Source: a virus (Duplodnaviria; Heunggongvirae; Uroviricota; Caudoviricetes). From it: 40,715 nucleotides of DNA. Location of the stretch: the IMG/VR virus record IMGVR_UViG_2851933302_000004. The stretch is one strand, 5' to 3'. The notes under the pieces were generated by a model that did not search any database, had not been told where the DNA came from, and saw only the letters and a list, made by a program, of their open reading frames with translations. The position numbers and the translations under genes were made by a program. Shown piece by piece: positions 3,369 to 39,270 of the stretch; position 1 is the stretch's first letter; the number at the start of each line of letters is the position of its first letter.

Positions 3369-3395
3369 CCCGCAATATTTTGCGGGCTTTTTTTT
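3369..3395 (+). terminator. Hairpin plus T8 tract overlapping the tailspike stop codon; efficient only in plus orientation
   Basis: CCCGCAA-TATT-TTGCGGG followed by TTTTTTTT. Confidence 0.4.
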
Positions 3396-6300
3396 AACGT
3401 TCTTCCAGAGACTGAACCCGCTCTTTTATCTTATCCATTTCTCTGCGCTGCCATGCTGCCTCGATATAGAATAAGAGATCAGGTCTGACCCCCCATCTAG
3501 ATCCTGCTGGCGTTATTTCAACGCGCTCAATGATGTCTTCTATTACCATCACTGGATTATCATCCTCATCAACAATGATGCTCCCGTCATTATCAGTCAG
3601 CGGCATTTCCCTTTGGCCAGTAATGACGTCATCATATACTGCGGGATAATCGTCATAGCAAAGAAAGGCATAGCGGCATGTTGTGCTTTCTTCTTCCATG
3701 AGTCCGTGAGAAATAAGAACATCACGAAGTTGCTGCGCGATTACACCATGATGTATCCTCGCCCCTTCTTCCCCCTTTATAGCGACAGCGTTCAGCCATT
3801 TATAAGCGATATACCTGACGTCACCCCAGGCATCCAGCAATGCTTCGTCAGGAGAGACCGGCTCTGTCTTTAATGTTCCGTCACTGGTAACCACAGGATT
3901 GGAGCCAAGATAAACTGTCGAGAACCTGTTTCCCGGACCACCAAGAGCATTTACATTATCAAGATAAGGTTTAACATCTCCGTTCTCAAAAAGATGTTCG
4001 AGTGCGTTATATACCGCGCGACGTGGAGTACTGCTTCCGGAACCATGCAACGTTATCATTGCACCATCTGCTGAAGACGTTGTTTCACCGCCGCTAACGA
4101 TTAATCTCTGAGCGGTAACATCATCAGACGGTACTTTCTTCGCAATAATGGCGTAATTACCCTCAAGTTTGACTTCCGCGCGAACTTGTCCTGATGTACC
4201 TGCATGGACAGTCAGTGACTGGACGGCAACATCATCTGTGAAATCAACGGGTACAGGAACCGTCCTCACGCCTGACGTCGACATAAAAGTAGGAAGCGTT
4301 CTGTTAGGAGTGGCTCCGTAGACAAAATCCCTTGAAACAAATTCTTCCTGTTTAATTTTCACCCTGAAACAATACAAATCAGCCGGGTGACCATCGTGAA
4401 CATAAGGATATTTTCTGTTGTTATCCCCTATGCTCCATGGGTTTAGAAAGTCTTCCCCACCGAAAATGTAGTACAGCCAGTTGTCTTTGATACAAACTGA
4501 ACCAACACCAACCGCAGAGTTAACTATTCCGCCCTGATAAATCTGATCAGTAACATTAACCCACTCTACATTATCCAGACTCCACTCATTGACGTTAACT
4601 CTGGTCATAAATGTTCTTGGATAATTTCCTGCATAACGGTTATCAGGTTCTCCTCCTTCCCACTCACCAAATGCGCGCTCACTGCCAAAAATAATCAGCT
4701 CATCGCCAACTTTGGCAAAAGGAAGGTTTGAGTGATGAACATTATTTGGGAAGCGAAGAGAATTCCATGATGTACCTAAATCAGAGCTTCTGTGCAATGA
4801 ACTACCGGGTTGAGTACTTAATGTCCCCCTGGTCGTCAGATACAGAATGCCATCATAATATTTTACACATGGCTCAGATGCATTCGCCTCATATTCTGCA
4901 GGTATGCGTCTGCGAACAAAGCTACCAGGAGAACCGAAAGCATCAGAGAAATAGAGTATCCCAAGCTCGCGTGGACCAATATCACCATTATGGTAGCCAA
5001 CAGCAAAACTGTTATCGCTAATCGTCGCAAAACTGTGAATCTCAGTAACAGGAGTGCTTCCGTCAACAAAAGAAGGAATAGTTCCAAGACTGGTTTTTCT
5101 CCATGGTGACGAGTGAAATGATGTACCAAAACTCCAGTATCTACCCTCGTTATTCTGATCCACATCCTGGGTATTTTGCGTCGTAACTGTAAAAGTATTT
5201 TTATCAATAACAGTAGTCACCGTCATATTCCCGGTAACACCTGTAACACCAGAGTTTGAGAAGTTGACAAAATCACCAGCAAATAATCCGTGATCAGTAA
5301 TGCGAATATAAGCGACTTGCTGATTTGCTGCTTTCGTTATACCACCATAAACGCGAAGGCTGCGACTCATTGGGCGATCCCACAACTCTGCAACCTGCAG
5401 TTTATTTCCGCTCACGGTCCGCGTCTCAATTACAGCAAAAAGGCGATTTCTGACAACCCCCATACTCATGCAGTGATAGTTAACTGTGGGATAGTTTTCA
5501 TGTAAATCTGTAAGCCATTCCGGCGTTGTCCAGGTCTTCCCGTCATCTCCTGAGCGAACCCATGCAACATGGAGGTTATTTACACCATGGCGGTCTCCAG
5601 CCATAAAAGGCGCATAGATGACATTGTCATATACAAACGTTTTATCCTGCGTCCAGGCGTTGTACCACGGTGTATCTGTAATTTTAAATAACTCTCCCTG
5701 GATAAAATCTTCAGAAGCATAAAAAAGAGGCTGGCCCGGTATTCTCTCAAATAAAAAACGAGCATTTTTAAATCGACTGACATCCGGAAGAGTTGATACT
5801 TTAAAAGTAAGCCCTAATCCGTCAATTTTATAACCTGGAGATGAGGCTTCAAGGCACGCGCTTATTGCAGTGGAATCGTCATTTATACCATCACCAACAG
5901 CTCCAAAATCTTTGGGGCTAATAGCATCACGCATTTTATCCTGGAACGTTCGGTACACAGCCCCAGAACCATACTGAATAAACCAACCAAAACCACCAAC
6001 AACCCCGGAGATTGCAGCATCGACATAATTACGCATTGAGCGATTATTTACAGCGTCCTGCTCAAATGATGGATCTGCAAGGTTAGAAATTTTGTTTTGC
6101 TTTGCATCGTAATATTTTGCAAGCAAAGATGGTTTCATCAATGCACGTCTGAACCACCCAAAACATTGCTGGATCAGCATCGTCAGGTAGTCAAAGGCAT
6201 CTTCATGCACTTCGGGGAAAAATTTTCCCTGATTGCGAAGGTCTGTCTCCTGCACTACATCAAGCACACGATCTATCGTAATTCGCCATCCAGTAGCAAG

Positions 6301-6513
6301 CGGAGACGGAAGAACCACAGAACCGCCACTATAAGTGCCCGCCCCAGTTACCGTATAACCGGTATCCAGAACCAATTCTGTTACGTTTCCGTTCAGGTCA
6401 GACACCTGAACAACCAGGTCTGATTTTCTGAAAACTCGAAAAGTATACGGAAACGATGTCGTAACGCCGTTACCGGTGTATTCGTTGTGGTCAACTTCGG
6501 TTGAGACCGTCAT
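3394..6513 (-). CDS. Tailspike with endo-N-acetylneuraminidase (endosialidase, K1 polysialic acid depolymerase) domain and C-terminal intramolecular chaperone (autoproteolytic) domain
   Basis: 1039 aa; central region (ERIPGQPLFYASEDF..ITDTPWYNAW..NYHCMSMGV..SGDDGKTW) closely parallels recalled endosialidase catalytic domains of K1 phages; C-terminal S-D-G-x-L-K segment typical of S74 chaperone domains; distinct N-terminal particle-binding domain. Confidence 0.85.
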   Translation of the reverse strand: MTVSTEVDHNEYTGNGVTTSFPYTFRVFRKSDLVVQVSDLNGNVTELVLDTGYTVTGAGTYSGGSVVLPSPLATGWRITIDRVLDVVQETDLRNQGKFFPEVHEDAFDYLTMLIQQCFGWFRRALMKPSLLAKYYDAKQNKISNLADPSFEQDAVNNRSMRNYVDAAISGVVGGFGWFIQYGSGAVYRTFQDKMRDAISPKDFGAVGDGINDDSTAISACLEASSPGYKIDGLGLTFKVSTLPDVSRFKNARFLFERIPGQPLFYASEDFIQGELFKITDTPWYNAWTQDKTFVYDNVIYAPFMAGDRHGVNNLHVAWVRSGDDGKTWTTPEWLTDLHENYPTVNYHCMSMGVVRNRLFAVIETRTVSGNKLQVAELWDRPMSRSLRVYGGITKAANQQVAYIRITDHGLFAGDFVNFSNSGVTGVTGNMTVTTVIDKNTFTVTTQNTQDVDQNNEGRYWSFGTSFHSSPWRKTSLGTIPSFVDGSTPVTEIHSFATISDNSFAVGYHNGDIGPRELGILYFSDAFGSPGSFVRRRIPAEYEANASEPCVKYYDGILYLTTRGTLSTQPGSSLHRSSDLGTSWNSLRFPNNVHHSNLPFAKVGDELIIFGSERAFGEWEGGEPDNRYAGNYPRTFMTRVNVNEWSLDNVEWVNVTDQIYQGGIVNSAVGVGSVCIKDNWLYYIFGGEDFLNPWSIGDNNRKYPYVHDGHPADLYCFRVKIKQEEFVSRDFVYGATPNRTLPTFMSTSGVRTVPVPVDFTDDVAVQSLTVHAGTSGQVRAEVKLEGNYAIIAKKVPSDDVTAQRLIVSGGETTSSADGAMITLHGSGSSTPRRAVYNALEHLFENGDVKPYLDNVNALGGPGNRFSTVYLGSNPVVTSDGTLKTEPVSPDEALLDAWGDVRYIAYKWLNAVAIKGEEGARIHHGVIAQQLRDVLISHGLMEEESTTCRYAFLCYDDYPAVYDDVITGQREMPLTDNDGSIIVDEDDNPVMVIEDIIERVEITPAGSRWGVRPDLLFYIEAAWQRREMDKIKERVQSLEER

Positions 6514-6708: not shown

Positions 6709-6966
6709 ATGCAGCAGTATCACTATCCACTGGAAGACGGATTTACCGAAAGGATTCACACGCCGGGAGGCGTCAGGTCACTGGTGGAGGGATCGCACTT
6801 GATGAAATTACTCCGGGATCTCGATAAGGATGGATTTAATGTCGATGGCCCACTTGCCGAACTGACTGCACTGATTAACTACGTCACCAGCTCACAGATG
6901 TCTATGCAGGATCTGCAAACACATCTCGACTATTGTGCCGAACAATTACGAAAACAAACCCGGTAA
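6709..6966 (+). CDS. Small SOS-regulated protein, candidate antirepressor; shares a domain with the C-terminus of the Bro-N protein at 8352..9047
   Basis: ORF 6586..6966 trimmed to ATG 6709 (GGAGAAG RBS); LexA box immediately upstream; about 50 percent identity to the C-terminal 75 aa of the 231-aa Bro-N protein (LMKLLRDLDKDGFNVDGPLAELT vs LMNLLNQLQEDGHDVSGAAAELT). Confidence 0.5.
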   Translation: MQQYHYPLEDGFTERIHTPGGVRSLVEGSHLMKLLRDLDKDGFNVDGPLAELTALINYVTSSQMSMQDLQTHLDYCAEQLRKQTR

Positions 6967-6973
6967 ATTTAAA

Positions 6974-6989
6974 GGCCGCAAGAGCGGCC
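6974..6989. terminator. Hairpin between convergent genes (GGCCGC-AAGA-GCGGCC), likely terminator for the minus-strand two-gene module
   Basis: Perfect 6-bp stem between stop codons at 6966 and 6991; T-rich on minus-strand side. Confidence 0.4.
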
Positions 6990-6990
6990 A

Positions 6991-7497
6991 TTAACAGTCG
7001 TAAAATTCCGGGTCCCACAAACTTGCATCGCGCGGCATGGATTCTAAATTTTTCAGCCGCAAAATTCTGTCACACTCGACAAGAAGTTTTTGTTTTTGTT
7101 CGTCAATTTCTACTTTTTTGTGTGCTGGCTCATCCCAGTAATCCAGAAGAAACGCATGTCGCTCAGACGTTACAAGATAAATCACATACACATCACTGGT
7201 TGGTATTTTTTTATGCTTGTTGGTGGTCTTGTCTTTCTTCCCGGATGCCCAGTTTTTCCAGCATTGTTCCGTACCGCTCTCACCAAACTTGTCAGTATAG
7301 TTTCCGATGTTTACGTGAACGTGGCGTATGTGATATTCCAGCATCTCTTTCGGTGGATCCCGAAACAGAGTGTCCTTTCCGAAATCCTTATGATGACCGT
7401 AGCGCCAGTGATCTATGAACGCGTTTTTGATAGGTATTAGCTCAGGGTCCTTCCCAAAAATTCCAGGGTGAACCAACCCCTGGAATTTATTCAGCAT
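6991..7497 (-). CDS. YafO-like toxin domain protein (candidate type II toxin or abortive-infection effector), AT-rich cargo
   Basis: ORF trimmed to ATG 7497; motifs FGKDTLFRD and HIRHVHVNIGN resemble the YafO family core (recalled); overlaps upstream gene by 11 bp. Confidence 0.4.
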   Translation of the reverse strand: MLNKFQGLVHPGIFGKDPELIPIKNAFIDHWRYGHHKDFGKDTLFRDPPKEMLEYHIRHVHVNIGNYTDKFGESGTEQCWKNWASGKKDKTTNKHKKIPTSDVYVIYLVTSERHAFLLDYWDEPAHKKVEIDEQKQKLLVECDRILRLKNLESMPRDASLWDPEFYDC

Positions 7498-7906
7498 CGT
7501 CGTAGAGCTCCTGAGCCATATCTTCGGCAGTGCGTGCAAACATCCTGCGCGAGATTGCATGAGATTTCTCGACGGACATCTTTGGGACCTCATGCATAAC
7601 ATTTTTGGGAGTTGTGTAATAGCCTATTACAATTTTCACACCTGACTTATGATTAATATCAGCATAATATACTTCTTGTTCAGACGTTTCACGACGAACA
7701 TAATCTGCCAGTTTTCCACATTTAAATTCCCCTCCCTGATGTTTTAAAATCTCCTCAACTGCACTATTTTCAGTGAAATACCGAATAAGAAATTTCTGTC
7801 CAGACTCTTCAGCATGAGGTATAACAGTATTATTGGAAGCCCGAACAATGGCCTTACTCAATATTTCATGGTCTTTATTTTTTTCTGATTTCCTCAAATG
7901 CTGCAT
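7487..7906 (-). CDS. Hypothetical protein with acidic C-terminal tail, upstream partner of the YafO-like gene (candidate antitoxin)
   Basis: ORF trimmed to ATG 7906; AT-rich; stop overlaps start of downstream gene. Confidence 0.4.
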   Translation of the reverse strand: MQHLRKSEKNKDHEILSKAIVRASNNTVIPHAEESGQKFLIRYFTENSAVEEILKHQGGEFKCGKLADYVRRETSEQEVYYADINHKSGVKIVIGYYTTPKNVMHEVPKMSVEKSHAISRRMFARTAEDMAQELYDDAE

Positions 7907-8067
7907 TACTGTAGCTCTCTTCGTGTTCACGGGCACCCCCAACTACCTCTAGGGTAAACATTCTATCGAAAGTATACGCATACTGGCAAAAAAATAGGCA
8001 GGTATTTTCTGAAATGGGATCAATCAAACCACATAGGGTTGAAATAACGTGAGTTATGCATTTATTA

Positions 8068-8082
8068 TTACCTTTGCGGTAA
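8068..8082. promoter_or_regulatory. Operator-like palindrome TTACC-N5-GGTAA (copy 2) about 270 bp upstream of the Bro-N gene
   Basis: TTACCTTTGCGGTAA; preceded by AACCACATAGG motif at 8027..8037. Confidence 0.45.
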
Positions 8083-8174
8083 ATTTACATCGCACTCCTC
8101 TTGTGCCATAGTAATCGGGCACTGGAAAAATCCAGTGCCGGGATTGGCGTCCCGGATTACTAAAAGGCGCATTC

Positions 8175-8196
8175 ACCGCGCAAGCGGTTTTTTTAT
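8175..8196 (+). terminator. Intrinsic terminator inside the 5-prime leader of the Bro-N gene (attenuator or end of a small RNA)
   Basis: ACCGC-GCAA-GCGGT hairpin followed by TTTTTTT. Confidence 0.5.
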
Positions 8197-8351
8197 GCGT
8201 ATAGCACGGCCACATTCGTATTATGGTGGGCTGTGTGGGGGCACCGAAAGGTGCGCCGGGTCCTTTTAGCCGGTTACGCCAACCCTGCACAGTTCACCAC
8301 CAACCGATTGGCGTCGGTAGTGGTGATTAACCAGACTAAAAGGTAACCACT

Positions 8352-9047
8352 ATGACAGCTACAAAAAGCACGTCCATTTTTTCTTTCGAATCCCAAGCCG
8401 ATATACGGGTAATCGTCATTAATGGTGAGCCATGGTTTATCGCTTCAGATGTTTGTCGGGCTATAGGCATAGCAAATCATCGAGATGCTGTTCGAAAACT
8501 TGATGATGATGAGAAGGGCGTCGCTTCAACCGACACCCCTGGCGGTGAGCAAGAATCGATCATCATCTCCGAGTCAGGCCTCTACACACTGATCCTCCGC
8601 TGCCGCGACGCAGTGACACCAGGCACTATCCCCTACCGCTTTCGTAAATGGGTTACAGGTGAGGTTCTTCCTCAGATCCGCCGCACCGGAAGTTACATTA
8701 AAAACTCGCTCCCGCAGGAAGAACGCATAAAGATGGTTGCCGACCAGGTAGCCAACGCCACAGCATCAGCAGTGATGCAGGCAATGAAGATAGAGAACAA
8801 AACCTACAGTGCCCCACTGAAGCCCGGCTACCGCAGCCTGATTCATTCGCCGTCTGGTGTTCTCGGCCTGACGGAGAACTCACTGCTGATGAATCTGCTG
8901 AACCAGTTACAGGAAGACGGGCACGACGTATCGGGCGCGGCGGCGGAGCTGACCACCATGTTCTGCTACATCGTCGGTGTGAGCAAGTGCCTGCGTGATA
9001 TCCAGACGCACGCGGAGTACATCAACGACAAGGCTGGGTTCTTCTGA
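8352..9047 (+). CDS. Bro-N domain protein with C-terminal antirepressor-like domain
   Basis: N-terminus FSFESQADIRVIVINGEPWFIASDVCRAIG is a classic Bro-N signature; C-terminus paralogous to the 85-aa SOS-regulated protein. Confidence 0.7.
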   Translation: MTATKSTSIFSFESQADIRVIVINGEPWFIASDVCRAIGIANHRDAVRKLDDDEKGVASTDTPGGEQESIIISESGLYTLILRCRDAVTPGTIPYRFRKWVTGEVLPQIRRTGSYIKNSLPQEERIKMVADQVANATASAVMQAMKIENKTYSAPLKPGYRSLIHSPSGVLGLTENSLLMNLLNQLQEDGHDVSGAAAELTTMFCYIVGVSKCLRDIQTHAEYINDKAGFF

Positions 9048-9187: not shown

Positions 9188-9820
9188 ATGAAAACAAATA
9201 CAACAAGAAAAGCGATGCCATACATTATCCCAGAAGCAGATTTCGACAGAAAACTGAACATGTCTGAGAAGAACACTAGTCACACCGAAAGCTACTTAGC
9301 GAAAGGTGTGGTTGATTTCGTTCTTCCGGGATTCACAACACCTTATGGTTATCGCCTTGTAAAATCTTGTAATGGCGATCATTACAGAATGATTACTACC
9401 AGCGATACTCCAGAAACGGTGTATGCGGTTAAGTTAATCTTTCGGGAAGATATCGTCGAAGCTAAAAGAACATGTACGCAGATCATGGTATGGCGTACGC
9501 CTAATGTTATTCATGACCGTGCTGTTCATGGTTTGCCTCAGATTTTTTTTCAGTTCTTCCTAGAGCAATATGCGATCGTTGTATCTGATGAGCAACAAAC
9601 AATCGATGGGAGAAGATTCTGGGAAAGAATGATTTCTTGGGCTATAAACACCCCGGGATATAATGTATACGTTTCAGATGGCTCTGAAGAAGATAGACCT
9701 CTTAGCTTCATGACATCATGGGATGATTTCTATAGCCAGTGGGCTGATTTCTGTTGGGGCAGTGATAAAGATGTGCATACCCACAGACTACTGGTTATAA
9801 GCAAAGATAAACTGCATTAA
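9188..9820 (+). CDS. Hypothetical cargo protein, 210 aa, function unknown
   Basis: ORF with GGGAGG RBS; operator copy upstream and strong terminator downstream; no recognisable family. Confidence 0.5.
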   Translation: MKTNTTRKAMPYIIPEADFDRKLNMSEKNTSHTESYLAKGVVDFVLPGFTTPYGYRLVKSCNGDHYRMITTSDTPETVYAVKLIFREDIVEAKRTCTQIMVWRTPNVIHDRAVHGLPQIFFQFFLEQYAIVVSDEQQTIDGRRFWERMISWAINTPGYNVYVSDGSEEDRPLSFMTSWDDFYSQWADFCWGSDKDVHTHRLLVISKDKLH

Positions 9821-10109: not shown

Positions 10110-10961
10110 TCACTGTGCAGTTTTCGCTGATCGATTTTCAGCTCTAAATTCAAGAACCGTTTCAATATTTCTTTCCTTCAGCATATCAATAACATTTTTA
10201 TTCATTTGACTATCACTGGTTAATAACTGGTAAACGTTGCTTCTCTCTTTATCAGAGTTTTCTTTAACAGCTGCTTTGCATGCCAAATGCTTATTGAAAT
10301 TTTCTACATCGCTAGTACAGGAATTTACGGCTGCTGATGAAATATCAGACGCTGAAGAAACACCATCATCCAAACGTTTTATAGCATTTTCTATACATGA
10401 GTTAAGGGAATAAACGACAACTGAGCGATACCCTTCAGACGCACACCATTCTAAATTTCTTGAAGGATCGAGTGGTTTTACTTCGCTGGATTGAATTAAC
10501 TTGTCAAAAACTGACTTATATTCAATCTGTTTTTTATCTATAGCCCATACTTCAGTAGCTGATTTATAATTCCCCGTATGCCTATTAACATCAAATCCAT
10601 GTTTTATAAGCAAATCTGCCCATGAAAGATTTATTGATTCATTGTTATGAGGCCATTTTCCTGTCAGAACCGCCCCCATAGACCCCATATATCCGCCATA
10701 TGATGGTATAGCACCATGGCTCAGTAACTTCTCAGCAACCACAGGGCAATTAATTACATAAGAGGCGTAAAGCCCATTCCATAAAGCCCCTCTATAGTAA
10801 TCGCCACGATTAGGTTCTTTTAAGTCGATAGCCTTTGATAATTGTTCACACGTTTTGCATGCATCAAAGTTATCCTTATTGCATTGCAATGAACTGGCAG
10901 CTGTAGGATTTACAGAGACTATTGAAAGCACTATGCCAAAAAACAAATTTATTTTTTTCAT
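10110..10961 (-). CDS. AT-rich secreted protein, 283 aa, possibly ankyrin-like repeats; moron at the distal end of the virion operon
   Basis: Signal peptide MKKINLFFGIVLSIVSVNPTAASS; codon composition visibly more AT-rich than neighbours; LLSHGA / LLIKHGFDVN segments are ankyrin-like. Confidence 0.55.
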   Translation of the reverse strand: MKKINLFFGIVLSIVSVNPTAASSLQCNKDNFDACKTCEQLSKAIDLKEPNRGDYYRGALWNGLYASYVINCPVVAEKLLSHGAIPSYGGYMGSMGAVLTGKWPHNNESINLSWADLLIKHGFDVNRHTGNYKSATEVWAIDKKQIEYKSVFDKLIQSSEVKPLDPSRNLEWCASEGYRSVVVYSLNSCIENAIKRLDDGVSSASDISSAAVNSCTSDVENFNKHLACKAAVKENSDKERSNVYQLLTSDSQMNKNVIDMLKERNIETVLEFRAENRSAKTAQ

Positions 10962-26745: not shown

Positions 26746-26822
26746 GTGGCATTAGCTCAGTTGGACAGAGCAACCGCCTTCTAAGCGGTTGGTCGCAGGT
26801 TCGAATCCTGCATGCCACGCCA
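26746..26822 (+). tRNA. tRNA-Arg (anticodon UCU), phage-encoded
   Basis: Cloverleaf folded by hand: 7-bp acceptor stem GTGGCAT/ATGCCAC, D-arm GCTC/GAGC, anticodon stem ACCGC/GCGGT with loop CTTCTAA, T-arm GCAGG-TTCGAAT-CCTGC, encoded CCA; resembles host argU with compensatory stem changes. Confidence 0.9.
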
Positions 26823-38328: not shown

Positions 38329-38628
38329 GTGAGAAAGTTAAGCCGACTTGAAAAATATCACATGAATAAGGTTTCAATGCGCAGTCCGTCAAAGATTGTC
38401 GCCGTTACTCCTGCGGCGATAGAGATCGAAAAACGCGCGATTGAAAGAGAGAAAAAAGGGCAGTTCCGCATTGCCGCTCACCTTTGGCTTCAGTGTATGG
38501 ATGTTGCTTCTGGTGATGTTGAACGTGCAAGGATCGCGGTTCGCAGGGACCAATGTATCACAAAAGGTAACGGCCTTCGCCGTGGCGACTATAGCGGCAT
38601 AGGATGTTGTGGGGTGGTTTATGACTAA
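38329..38628 (+). CDS. Hypothetical protein
   Basis: 99 aa ORF. Confidence 0.4.
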   Translation: MRKLSRLEKYHMNKVSMRSPSKIVAVTPAAIEIEKRAIEREKKGQFRIAAHLWLQCMDVASGDVERARIAVRRDQCITKGNGLRRGDYSGIGCCGVVYD

Positions 38629-39270
38629 GAAATACACACTAATCTATGCAGATCCACCCTGGGTATACCGGGACAAAGCCGCAGATGGTAATCGCGGTGC
38701 CGGTTTTAAATATCCGGTTATGAGTGTGCTGGATATCTGCCGCCTTCCTGTGTGGGATTTGGCCGATGAAAACTGTCTGTTGGCCATGTGGTGGGTGCCA
38801 ACACAACCACTCGAAGCACTAAAAGTTGTTGAAGCCTGGGGATTCCGTCTGATGACGATGAAGGGCTTCACGTGGATAAAATGTGGTAGTCGACAACCAG
38901 ATAAACTTGTTATGGGTATGGGACACATGACTCGCGCCAATAGTGAAGATTGCCTGTTTGCGGTAAAGGGAAACTACCTCCGCGCATTAATGCAGGGATC
39001 GTTCAGTCATTTACCGCACCGCGGCTTGAGCACTCAAGAAAACCAGATGTCGTTCGTGAAAAACTTGTGCAATTGTTAGGCGATGTTTCTCGCATTGAAC
39101 TATTCGCCCGCCAGTCGTCTCATGGCTTCGATGTTTGGGGTAATCAGTGCGAAGACCCGGCAGTGCAACTACACCCTGGATACGCGTTGGATATTGGCGG
39201 ATTAACAAATGCATTCAGCATTTCTCCGCTGTCACCAACAGACAACCAGGGGCGGGAGCGTGCTGCATGA
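38621..39270 (+). pseudogene. MT-A70-family DNA N6-adenine methyltransferase, interrupted by a 1-nt frameshift near 38965..38973
   Basis: N-terminal ORF has IYADPPWVY motif; C-terminal part (RLEHSRKPD..IELFARQ..DVWGNQ) continues in a different frame from about 38962; shift maps to short A/G homopolymer. Confidence 0.65.

What the first reader, a model, noticed from the sequence alone, without database searches (positions are those of the whole stretch)
6991..7906. AT-rich two-gene module with a YafO-like toxin and an unrelated partner
Two overlapping minus-strand genes sit between the tailspike and antirepressor loci and are visibly more AT-rich than the virion genes. The downstream product carries FGKDTLFRD and HIRHVHVNIGN motifs that I recall from YafO mRNA-interferase toxins. 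The upstream partner has an acidic tail but does not resemble the usual YafN antitoxin. This is a candidate toxin-antitoxin or phage-exclusion cassette.
Basis: partly seen in the sequence, partly recalled or inferred. Interest (0 to 1): 0.7.

Follow-up and report, generated by a model that had tools for sequence, protein, structure and literature searches.

The report
Prophage YafO-like toxin with new antitoxin
A 1.1-kb cargo insert in an E. coli prophage carries a distant relative of the mRNA-cutting toxin YafO, paired with an uncharacterised partner protein that is probably its antidote; this is a fairly ordinary toxin-antitoxin module whose antidote family is undescribed.

Summary
Two overlapping minus-strand genes (6991-7497; 7487-7906, more likely starting at GTG 7930) lie between the endosialidase tailspike and the Bro-N antirepressor of a phiV10/epsilon15-like prophage. 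The window is identical to E. coli APEC O18. The genes are AT-rich (41.7% GC against 48.3% for the window).

The partner matches nothing known, including YafN. An upstream ORF precedes the toxin gene in all 59 instances, overlapping it in 58. Its last ~35 residues track the toxin subfamily, while its N-terminal part is swapped or fast-evolving. A conserved hairpin with two compensatory pairs sits at the gene junction. The pair has its own promoter-like site and terminator and is absent from phiV10.

Best reading: a type II toxin-antitoxin moron with a new antitoxin family. Toxicity, neutralisation and any phage exclusion remain untested.

The parts
6967..8075 (-). Cargo insert (moron) relative to phage phiV10; it holds everything listed below. 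The right boundary is approximate.
   Evidence: The alignment with phiV10 and TL-2011b loses homology just after the gp19-like stop (~6966). I read the resumption near 8075-8100, before isrK, from the sequences; no alignment of the right junction was run. In the phage search the flanks match and the middle is missing in phiV10, ZX5 and others. TL-2011b holds a different 1.1-kb cargo in the same slot.
6969..6994 (.). GC-rich hairpin (GGCCGC-TCTT-GCGGCC), terminator-like, directly after the toxin stop. It is shared with TL-2011b and serves the convergent gp19-like gene as well.
   Evidence: Terminator scan (6989..6974, minus strand), inverted repeat I2, and conservation in TL-2011b.
6991..7497 (-). 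YafO-like toxin gene (168 aa): a long-form member of the YafO superfamily with a RelE/HigB-type fold.
   Evidence: dN/dS is 0.02-0.05 at dS up to ~1.
7458..7488 (-). RNA hairpin (11 bp, 9-nt loop) that begins at the last base of the partner's stop codon, 6 nt after the toxin's ATG. In this sequence it is followed by UUUUU.
   Evidence: Perfect inverted repeat I1. MFE -22.9 kcal/mol, z -2.0. 100% paired in 7 distinct homologous sequences, with two compensatory pairs (A-U to G-C, U-A to A-U).
7487..7930 (-). Partner (putative antitoxin) gene: 147 aa from GTG 7930, or 139 aa from ATG 7906.
   Evidence: phrog_9503 at 3.5e-88, function unknown. No Pfam, NCBIfam, PADLOC or PDB match.
7490..7603 (-). 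Coding region for the partner's conserved C-terminal tail (last 38 aa, ...VPKMSVEKSHAISRRMFARTAEDMAQELYDDAE). This is the inferred toxin-binding segment.
   Evidence: The tail is invariant across partners whose N-terminal parts differ. Its identity tracks toxin identity. Its dN/dS is 0.02-0.11, against 0.3-0.6 for the N-terminal part. It is the only predicted helix with pLDDT above 60.
7960..7989 (-). Sigma-70-like promoter (TTGCCA-18-TAGAAT) preceded by a T-run, upstream of the partner gene.
   Evidence: Promoter scan, 10 of 12 matches. The region is conserved upstream of all subfamily-A pairs, and the -35 TTGCCA is kept in the 78%-identity branch. No transcript data exist.

Best explanation
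This is a self-contained type II toxin-antitoxin-like operon carried as a moron by a phiV10/epsilon15-like temperate phage.

- Toxin. The downstream gene encodes a long-form member of the YafO superfamily with a RelE/HigB (BECR) fold. By homology it is inferred to be an mRNA endoribonuclease that arrests translation.
- Antitoxin. The upstream gene encodes a protein of an undescribed family. Its conserved, partly acidic C-terminal helix (~35 aa) is inferred to bind and neutralise the cognate toxin. Its N-terminal part is exchangeable and fast-evolving.
- Expression. The pair is transcribed from its own promoter-like site, diverging from the isrK-C4-ant immunity region, and ends at a hairpin terminator. 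Toxin synthesis is probably kept below antitoxin synthesis in two ways: translational coupling through the 11-nt overlap, and a conserved hairpin that starts at the antitoxin stop codon.
- Role (inferred). The module either stabilises the prophage or causes abortive infection or exclusion when antitoxin supply fails.

Shown here: homology, fold, conserved pairing, the selection pattern, the hairpin covariation and the insert boundaries. Inferred: RNase activity, neutralisation by the tail, regulation and biological role.
For: Toxin identity:
- Profile-profile match to canonical YafO at 98.75% probability, E 1.5e-16.
- 31 of 52 relatives hit PF13957, best E 7.8e-25.
- The five invariant residues of the 52-sequence family (F27, G40, H61, Y107, H126) and the near-invariant D42 and S101 are in the window protein. 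They align with conserved YafO positions, including HxH and AHK.
- RefSeq names it a YafO family toxin.
- YafO is an experimentally confirmed translation-dependent mRNA interferase with antitoxin-toxin gene order (PMC2814082; PMC11980606 Table 1).

Pairing:
- All 59 instances in 56 sources have an upstream ORF. It overlaps the toxin start by 11, 14 or 26 nt in 58 and ends 5 nt before it in L057.
- For toxins at least 90% identical, the tails are 97% identical but the N-terminal parts only 53%.
- dN/dS is 0.02-0.05 for the toxin, 0.02-0.11 for the tail and 0.3-0.6 for the N-terminal part.
- Paralogous pairs with different tails coexist in one phage (L026, L030, L022), as expected for insulated TA pairs.

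Autonomy:
- The pair has its own promoter-like site and terminator.
- It is absent from phiV10 and present in the isolated phage EC.W1-9.

Hairpin: two compensatory pairs.
Against: - The window protein has no direct Pfam, NCBIfam or PADLOC hit.
- The partner has no recognisable DNA-binding domain and a low-confidence model (pLDDT 46), so autoregulation and even direct binding are unproven.
- Because the tail lies next to the toxin gene, physical linkage alone could explain part of the tail-toxin correlation.
- No palindromic operator is conserved at the promoter.
- There are no data on toxicity, neutralisation or phage phenotype.
- Recent work questions whether YafO itself needs the ribosome (PMC11980606).
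Confidence: 0.72

Rival explanations
1. A lytic-cycle host-shutoff or takeover RNase with a dedicated inhibitor or chaperone. On this reading the phage uses the YafO-like nuclease during lytic growth, and the partner merely times or escorts it; there is no addiction or defence role.
For: The pair lies on the same strand as the tailspike, lysis and virion genes. It sits next to the antirepressor switch. It is found almost only in phiV10-like phage genomes, including the isolated phage EC.W1-9.
Against: The pair has its own sigma-70-like promoter and terminator, typical of lysogen-expressed morons. It is dispensable, being absent from phiV10, ZX5 and many relatives. Its architecture (upstream partner, overlap, toxin-specific tail) is that of type II TA modules. 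One relative sits in a Serratia integrative element rather than a full phage.
Confidence: 0.12
2. The partner is not an antitoxin. It would be an unrelated or regulatory gene that merely overlaps the toxin gene, or an adaptor or co-toxin, with the nuclease held in check some other way.
For: The partner matches no antitoxin family. It has no detectable similarity to YafN. Its structure prediction is poor.
Against: The upstream position is conserved in 59 of 59 instances and overlaps the toxin gene in 58. The tail motif ([KR]x[ML][ST]..E[SA]..[IL]S...[FY]D..E) persists down to ~40% toxin identity. The tail is under strong purifying selection. In subfamily D the partner is reduced to 59 aa, little more than the tail.
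Confidence: 0.08
3. An inactive relic: a decayed TA remnant hitch-hiking in a variable phage region.
For: The protein is too divergent for the Pfam model. The module occurs in only ~1% of complete E. coli genomes.
Against: The toxin's dN/dS is 0.02-0.05 at near-saturated dS. All superfamily-invariant residues are retained. The ORFs are intact in every locus examined.
Confidence: 0.05

Closest known systems
E. coli K-12 YafN-YafO type II toxin-antitoxin system (YafO: Pfam PF13957, a BECR/RelE-superfamily mRNA interferase)
   Same: The toxin is homologous over the whole YafO domain (hhalign 98.75%). It shares the FG[KR]D, HxH, T[SN]D, Y and P.AHK positions. Gene order is antitoxin then toxin, with overlapping genes. 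The partner also ends in an acidic ...[FY]D..E tail, as YafN does, though that likeness is not statistically supported.
   Different: The toxin is 168 aa rather than 132. It carries a ~20-residue insertion (residues ~66-90, CW..W motif) and a C-terminal extension, and falls below the Pfam and NCBIfam models. The antitoxin is not a Phd/YefM protein and shows no detectable similarity to YafN. The module sits in a prophage moron slot rather than the dinB operon, and I saw no LexA box on reading the promoter sequence.
HigB2/HigA2 (V. cholerae, PDB 5mje/5jaa) and other HigB/RelE toxins
   Different: Sequence identity is only 8-14%. HigBA systems have toxin-first gene order and an HTH antitoxin. Foldseek does not recover the match at a significant E-value.
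yafO/ydaS-like pair noted on Salmonella prophage mTmII (PMC9836087)
   Same: It is another prophage-borne gene with similarity to yafO, proposed there as a possible TA system linked to phage resistance.
   Different: There the partner is a ydaS-like HTH protein, and the prophage is SfI/SfV-like. I made no sequence comparison with it.

Membership tests
YafO toxin family (Pfam PF13957 / NCBI 'YafO family toxin') | Direct match of the protein to the family HMM at or near its threshold | tested here: not met
   hmmscan of the window protein against Pfam-A and NCBIfam at E<=1 (and Pfam again at E<=10) returns nothing. RefSeq nevertheless names it a YafO family toxin. I therefore file it as a homologue in the wider YafO superfamily, not as a member of PF13957 as currently modelled.
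YafO toxin family (Pfam PF13957 / NCBI 'YafO family toxin') | Homology to canonical YafO across the domain, shown by profile methods or intermediate sequences | tested here: met
   hhalign of A5 (52 sequences) against the canonical YafO alignment A3 gives 98.75% probability, E 1.5e-16, 122 columns. With 12 sequences it gives 70.7%, E 3.8e-5. 10 of 12 close and 31 of 52 distant relatives hit PF13957, best E 7.8e-25.
YafO toxin family (Pfam PF13957 / NCBI 'YafO family toxin') | Conserved motif residues: FG[KR]D, HxH, T[SN]D, the Y of [LI][VI]Y, and P.AHK | tested here: met
   Window residues G40, D42, H59, H61, T100, S101, Y107 and H126 align with YafO G39, D41, H60, H62, T80, N81, Y88 and H109. 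Their catalytic role has not been established experimentally, here or in the papers I read.
YafO toxin family (Pfam PF13957 / NCBI 'YafO family toxin') | BECR/RelE-type fold | tested here: inconclusive
YafO toxin family (Pfam PF13957 / NCBI 'YafO family toxin') | Cognate antitoxin of the YafN (Phd/YefM, PF02604) type encoded upstream | tested here: not met
   An upstream gene is present, but it has no PF02604 hit. BLASTP against YafN gives E 1.9. hhalign of the tail profile against YafN gives 0.2% probability. The shuffle test on tails gives p 0.15-0.8. Canonical YafO orthologues do have PF02604 partners.
YafO toxin family (Pfam PF13957 / NCBI 'YafO family toxin') | Growth arrest by translation-dependent mRNA cleavage | not testable with these tools
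   This needs expression and RNA mapping. It is shown for K-12 YafO in PMC2814082.
Type II toxin-antitoxin module (generic) | Two small co-oriented, overlapping or coupled genes that are kept as a pair across genomes | tested here: met
   There is an 11-nt overlap here. In 59 of 59 instances (56 sources; 31 distinct partner/toxin pairs among those with partners of at least 100 aa) an upstream ORF precedes the toxin gene, overlapping it by 11, 14 or 26 nt in 58 and ending 5 nt before it in L057.
Type II toxin-antitoxin module (generic) | Antitoxin with a toxin-specific neutralising segment | tested here: inconclusive
   The C-terminal ~35 aa are conserved, track the toxin subfamily and are under strong purifying selection.
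Type II toxin-antitoxin module (generic) | Antitoxin DNA-binding domain and operator giving autoregulation | tested here: not met
   No HTH, RHH, AbrB or Phd domain was found in any of 16 partner variants. There is no PDB sequence match, and no palindrome is conserved at the promoter. The basic N-terminus (MNTKR..MRHRR..KR) is only suggestive.
Known anti-phage defence systems (PADLOC-DB v2) | Match of either protein to a defence-system model | tested here: not met
   No PADLOC family at E<=1 for either protein or for three neighbouring ORFs.

The most novel reading that the evidence does not exclude
The partner is a modular antitoxin. A portable ~35-residue neutralising tail is fused to a rapidly diversifying, frequently swapped N-terminal domain, and that domain acts as a sensor or regulator, for instance of incoming phage proteins or of the adjacent isrK-C4-ant antirepressor switch. 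The module would then be a prophage-encoded abortive-infection or exclusion device whose trigger specificity evolves by N-domain exchange. The junction hairpin would be a new control element setting the toxin:antitoxin ratio.
Probability: 0.15. Interest if true: 0.6.

Novelty: new variant of a known kind. Interest (0 to 1): 0.38.

Why it matters
The toxin half is already recognised: RefSeq labels it a YafO-family toxin, so the basic call adds little.

Three things are new here.
- A long-form YafO clade is tied almost exclusively to the antirepressor region of phiV10/epsilon15-like prophages of Enterobacteriaceae.
- Its upstream partner belongs to an unclassified family. That family has a conserved tail that co-inherits with the toxin and an exchangeable N-terminal part. 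In one subfamily the partner is only 59 aa.
- A covarying RNA hairpin sits at the antitoxin-stop/toxin-start junction.

If confirmed, this would give a compact system for studying how antitoxin specificity and regulation are partitioned. It would also add a testable candidate to the list of prophage-borne exclusion or stabilisation modules in ExPEC/APEC lineages. The module is present in 58 of 5,426 complete E. coli genomes.

Tried and rejected
- Direct family scans of both proteins (Pfam, NCBIfam, PADLOC) gave no hits. PHROGs gave only unknown-function families, phrog_1651 and phrog_9503.
- PDB sequence searches of both proteins and of the partner profile found nothing below E 0.7.
- I suspected the partner tail was homologous to the YafN C-terminus, because both end ...[FY]-D/N-x-x-E and share an I[ST]RR-like stretch. 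BLASTP, hhalign and a shuffle test all reject this as unsupported.
- The partner structure prediction (pLDDT 46) was too poor for a fold search.
- Foldseek of the toxin model against PDB and BFVD gave no significant hits. afdb50 was unavailable.
- The genome-contig scan returned only one locus, in Serratia aquatilis. Species-representative genomes rarely carry this prophage.
- Scans with wide alignments (A5, A10) failed for lack of conserved stretches. P0097 gave no hits in viral contigs.
- The five long, multi-stretch hits of the exhaustive HMM search looked odd. The two I read (P0123, P0147) are RCC1-like repeat proteins and therefore spurious.
- I looked for a candidate operator palindrome (AGTAT-GCGT-ATACT) in the promoter spacer. 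Its left arm varies among homologous loci, so I dropped it.
- The junction hairpin could be a conserved intrinsic terminator, but the U-tract is degraded in the 78%-identity branch while the stem is maintained. A translational or stability role is therefore more likely than termination.
- The literature search found no paper on this protein pair or its accessions.

Full report
**1. Observation**

The window is a prophage of E. coli APEC O18 (NZ_CP006830.1, 1633925-1674639, 100% identical). It is inserted next to yfgI and has an integrase at its far end. Its gene order and nearest relatives mark it as phiV10/epsilon15-like.

On the minus strand, ORF 6991..7497 (168 aa) is overlapped by 11 nt by ORF 7487..7906 (139 aa from the ATG). 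Both quoted motifs (FGKDTLFRD, HIRHVHVNIGN) and the acidic ...ELYDDAE end are present. The endosialidase tailspike (3394..6513) and the Bro-N antirepressor (8352..9047) flank the pair.

GC is 0.417, against 0.483 for the window and 0.496 for the virion block. Only 2.2% of equal-sized windows are as AT-rich.

One correction. Homologous loci have an ATG where the window has GTG 7930 (gggggtgcccATGaacacgaag against ...GTGaacacgaag), and RefSeq uses 7930. The partner is therefore probably 147 aa.

**2. The downstream protein**

Direct scans fail. Pfam, NCBIfam and PADLOC give nothing, and PHROGs gives only phrog_1651 of unknown function. BLASTP against K-12 YafO is marginal, at 31% identity over 54 aa, although it aligns FGKDTLF with FGRDALY. 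The word-index search found 14 relatives, some of which NCBI names 'YafO family toxin'.

An exhaustive HMM search of 1.84 billion representatives found only 73 proteins at E<=1e-3. Five of these are long proteins with six to ten matched stretches. The two I read are RCC1-like repeat proteins and so spurious.

- Of 52 full-length relatives, 31 hit PF13957, best E 7.8e-25.
- Their profile aligns with a canonical YafO alignment at 98.75% probability, E 1.5e-16, over 122 columns.
- The residues invariant in the 52-sequence family are F27, G40, H61, Y107 and H126, with D42 and S101 nearly so. They align with conserved YafO positions, including the HxH and P.AHK motifs.
- Relative to YafO, the phage clade has a ~20-residue insertion (residues ~66-90, low pLDDT) and a C-terminal extension.
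- dN/dS between diverged copies is 0.02-0.05 at dS near 1, so the protein is under strong constraint.

YafO is an experimentally established translation-dependent mRNA interferase and one of 13 BECR-fold toxin families, with antitoxin-toxin gene order (PMC2814082, PMC11980606).

The protein is a real but divergent YafO homologue. It lies outside the current Pfam model, and RefSeq already labels it as such.

**3. The partner**

No Pfam, NCBIfam, PADLOC or PDB match exists for it or for 15 variant partners. The AF2 model is poor (pLDDT 46), and only a C-terminal helix (residues 112-138) rises above 60. There is no detectable similarity to YafN. BLASTP gives E 1.9, hhalign gives 0.2% probability, and a shuffle test on the tails gives p 0.15-0.8. 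Canonical YafO orthologues do have Phd/YefM partners.

The comparative pattern says more.

- In all 59 instances of a YafO-like gene in 56 sources (window, phage records, NCBI, ENA and Logan contigs, IMG/VR), an upstream ORF precedes the toxin gene. It overlaps the toxin start by 11, 14 or 26 nt in 58 and ends 5 nt before it in L057.
- The last ~35 residues of these partners fall into types that match the toxin subfamily:
  - A: VPKMSVEKSHAISRRMFARTAEDMAQELYDDAE
  - B: PRVKKMSFTEAC.LSRELSDSREERL..ASFDGPE
  - C: KKLSSAESKEISFRQLNSLETHMKEEEFDVFE
  - D: a 59-aa partner that is little more than a basic N-terminus plus the tail
- All types share a loose [KR]x[ML][ST]..E[SA]..[IL]S...[FY]D..E pattern.
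- For toxin pairs at least 90% identical, the tails are 97% identical but the N-terminal parts only 53% (minimum 22%).
- dN/dS is 0.02-0.11 for the tail and 0.3-0.6 for the N-terminal part.
- Some phages carry two paralogous pairs with different tails, one on each side of the antirepressor gene (L026, L030, L022).

This is what one expects of an antitoxin whose C-terminal segment neutralises its cognate toxin. Physical linkage between the tail and the toxin gene contributes to the correlation, and binding itself is not shown.

**4. Regulatory anatomy**

A sigma-70-like promoter (TTGCCA-18-TAGAAT, 7989..7960) preceded by a T-run lies upstream of the partner gene. It is conserved in homologous loci. 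A GC-rich hairpin at 6969-6994 follows the toxin stop and is shared with phage TL-2011b.

At the gene junction there is a perfect 11-bp hairpin (7458-7488). It starts at the last base of the partner's TAA, 6 nt after the toxin's ATG. It is fully paired in seven distinct homologous sequences. In the 78%-identity branch, two pairs changed on both sides (A-U to G-C, U-A to A-U). The 5'-arm changes alter the partner's stop codon (TAA to TAG) and toxin residues (K to R, F to Y). The 3'-arm changes are synonymous. Both changes belong to one lineage, so this is suggestive rather than statistically strong.

The downstream U-run is not conserved. I therefore favour a role in limiting or coupling toxin translation, or in transcript stability, over termination. 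This is inference.

**5. Context**

Compared with phiV10, the window has a ~1.1-kb insert (about 6967-8075) between the epsilon15 gp19-like gene and the isrK/C4/ant region. The left junction comes from the alignment, and the right one from my reading of the sequences. TL-2011b holds a different cargo in the same slot. The isolated phage EC.W1-9 holds the same pair.

Rfam finds isrK (8119-8194) and C4 antisense RNA (8219-8304) upstream of the antirepressor. The module's promoter therefore sits back-to-back with a P1-like immI control region.

The module occurs in 58 of 5,426 complete E. coli genomes, always on the chromosome. In IMG/VR it is found mostly on contigs of 25-50 kb, the size expected for these prophages. 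A relative in Serratia aquatilis lies in an integrase/AlpA-type element.

**6. Interpretation**

The best reading (confidence ~0.7) is a type II toxin-antitoxin moron. It consists of a YafO-superfamily mRNA endonuclease neutralised by the C-terminal helix of a new, modular antitoxin. It has its own promoter and terminator and a junction hairpin that probably keeps toxin output low.

The biological role cannot be decided here. It could be prophage stabilisation, abortive infection or exclusion, or a link to the antirepressor switch. No known defence model matches, and I found no paper on this pair.

Three rivals are each less well supported:
- a lytic-cycle shutoff nuclease with an escort protein;
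- a partner that is not an antitoxin;
- an inactive relic.

**7. Novelty and score**

The toxin call is already in RefSeq. The partner family, its tail/N-domain modularity, the clade's restriction to one phage region and the junction hairpin appear undescribed. That makes this a new variant of a known kind, of moderate interest (0.38).

Noticed in passing
window 8119-8194 (+) and 8219-8304 (+): Rfam finds an isrK Hfq-binding sRNA (76.7 bits) and a C4 antisense RNA (77.7 bits) directly upstream of the Bro-N antirepressor gene (8352..9047). This is a P1-like c4/ant immunity-I arrangement in a phiV10/epsilon15-like prophage. About 200 bases here also match many Stx phages at ~80% identity.
   Followed up: partly
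window 6709-6966 (+); also L019 5272-5523: The small epsilon15 gp19-like ORF resembles the C-terminal part of antirepressors (phrog_1760, 4.8e-7) and the C-terminus of the window's own Bro-N protein. A similar 83-aa ORF lies immediately upstream of the YafO-like pair in a Serratia aquatilis integrative element, so this neighbour recurs.
   Followed up: no
window 9188-9820 (+); L026 2418-3243; L030; L022; L003 5458-6157; L063 2847-3546: The slot downstream of the antirepressor holds a 210-aa gene of unknown function here (phrog_1349). In other phiV10-like prophages the same slot holds a second, paralogous YafO-like pair (subfamily C with a 108-aa partner, or subfamily D with a 59-aa partner). 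Some phages therefore carry two such pairs flanking ant.
   Followed up: partly
window 10110-10961 (-): This is the most AT-rich stretch of the window (GC ~0.37). It encodes a 283-aa protein with a signal-peptide-like N-terminus (phrog_6118, no known function) and is probably another moron.
   Followed up: no
window 3394-6513 (-): The tailspike is annotated as an endosialidase, with a C-terminal region like those of K1-specific phages. It sits in a prophage resident in an APEC O18 / ST95-type host.
   Followed up: no
window 26746-26822 (+): There is a phage-borne tRNA-Arg between the portal-side genes and the terminase genes.
   Followed up: no
window 38377-39270 (+): A PerC-family transcriptional regulator gene is followed by a frameshifted MT-A70 family methyltransferase pseudogene in the early region.
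   Followed up: no
L003 3489-4577 (phage TL-2011b): TL-2011b carries a different ~1.1-kb cargo, annotated only as 'similar to hypothetical protein', in the same slot. It keeps the same GGCCGC..GCGGCC hairpin after the gp19-like gene, so this looks like a reusable cargo slot bounded by that hairpin.
   Followed up: partly
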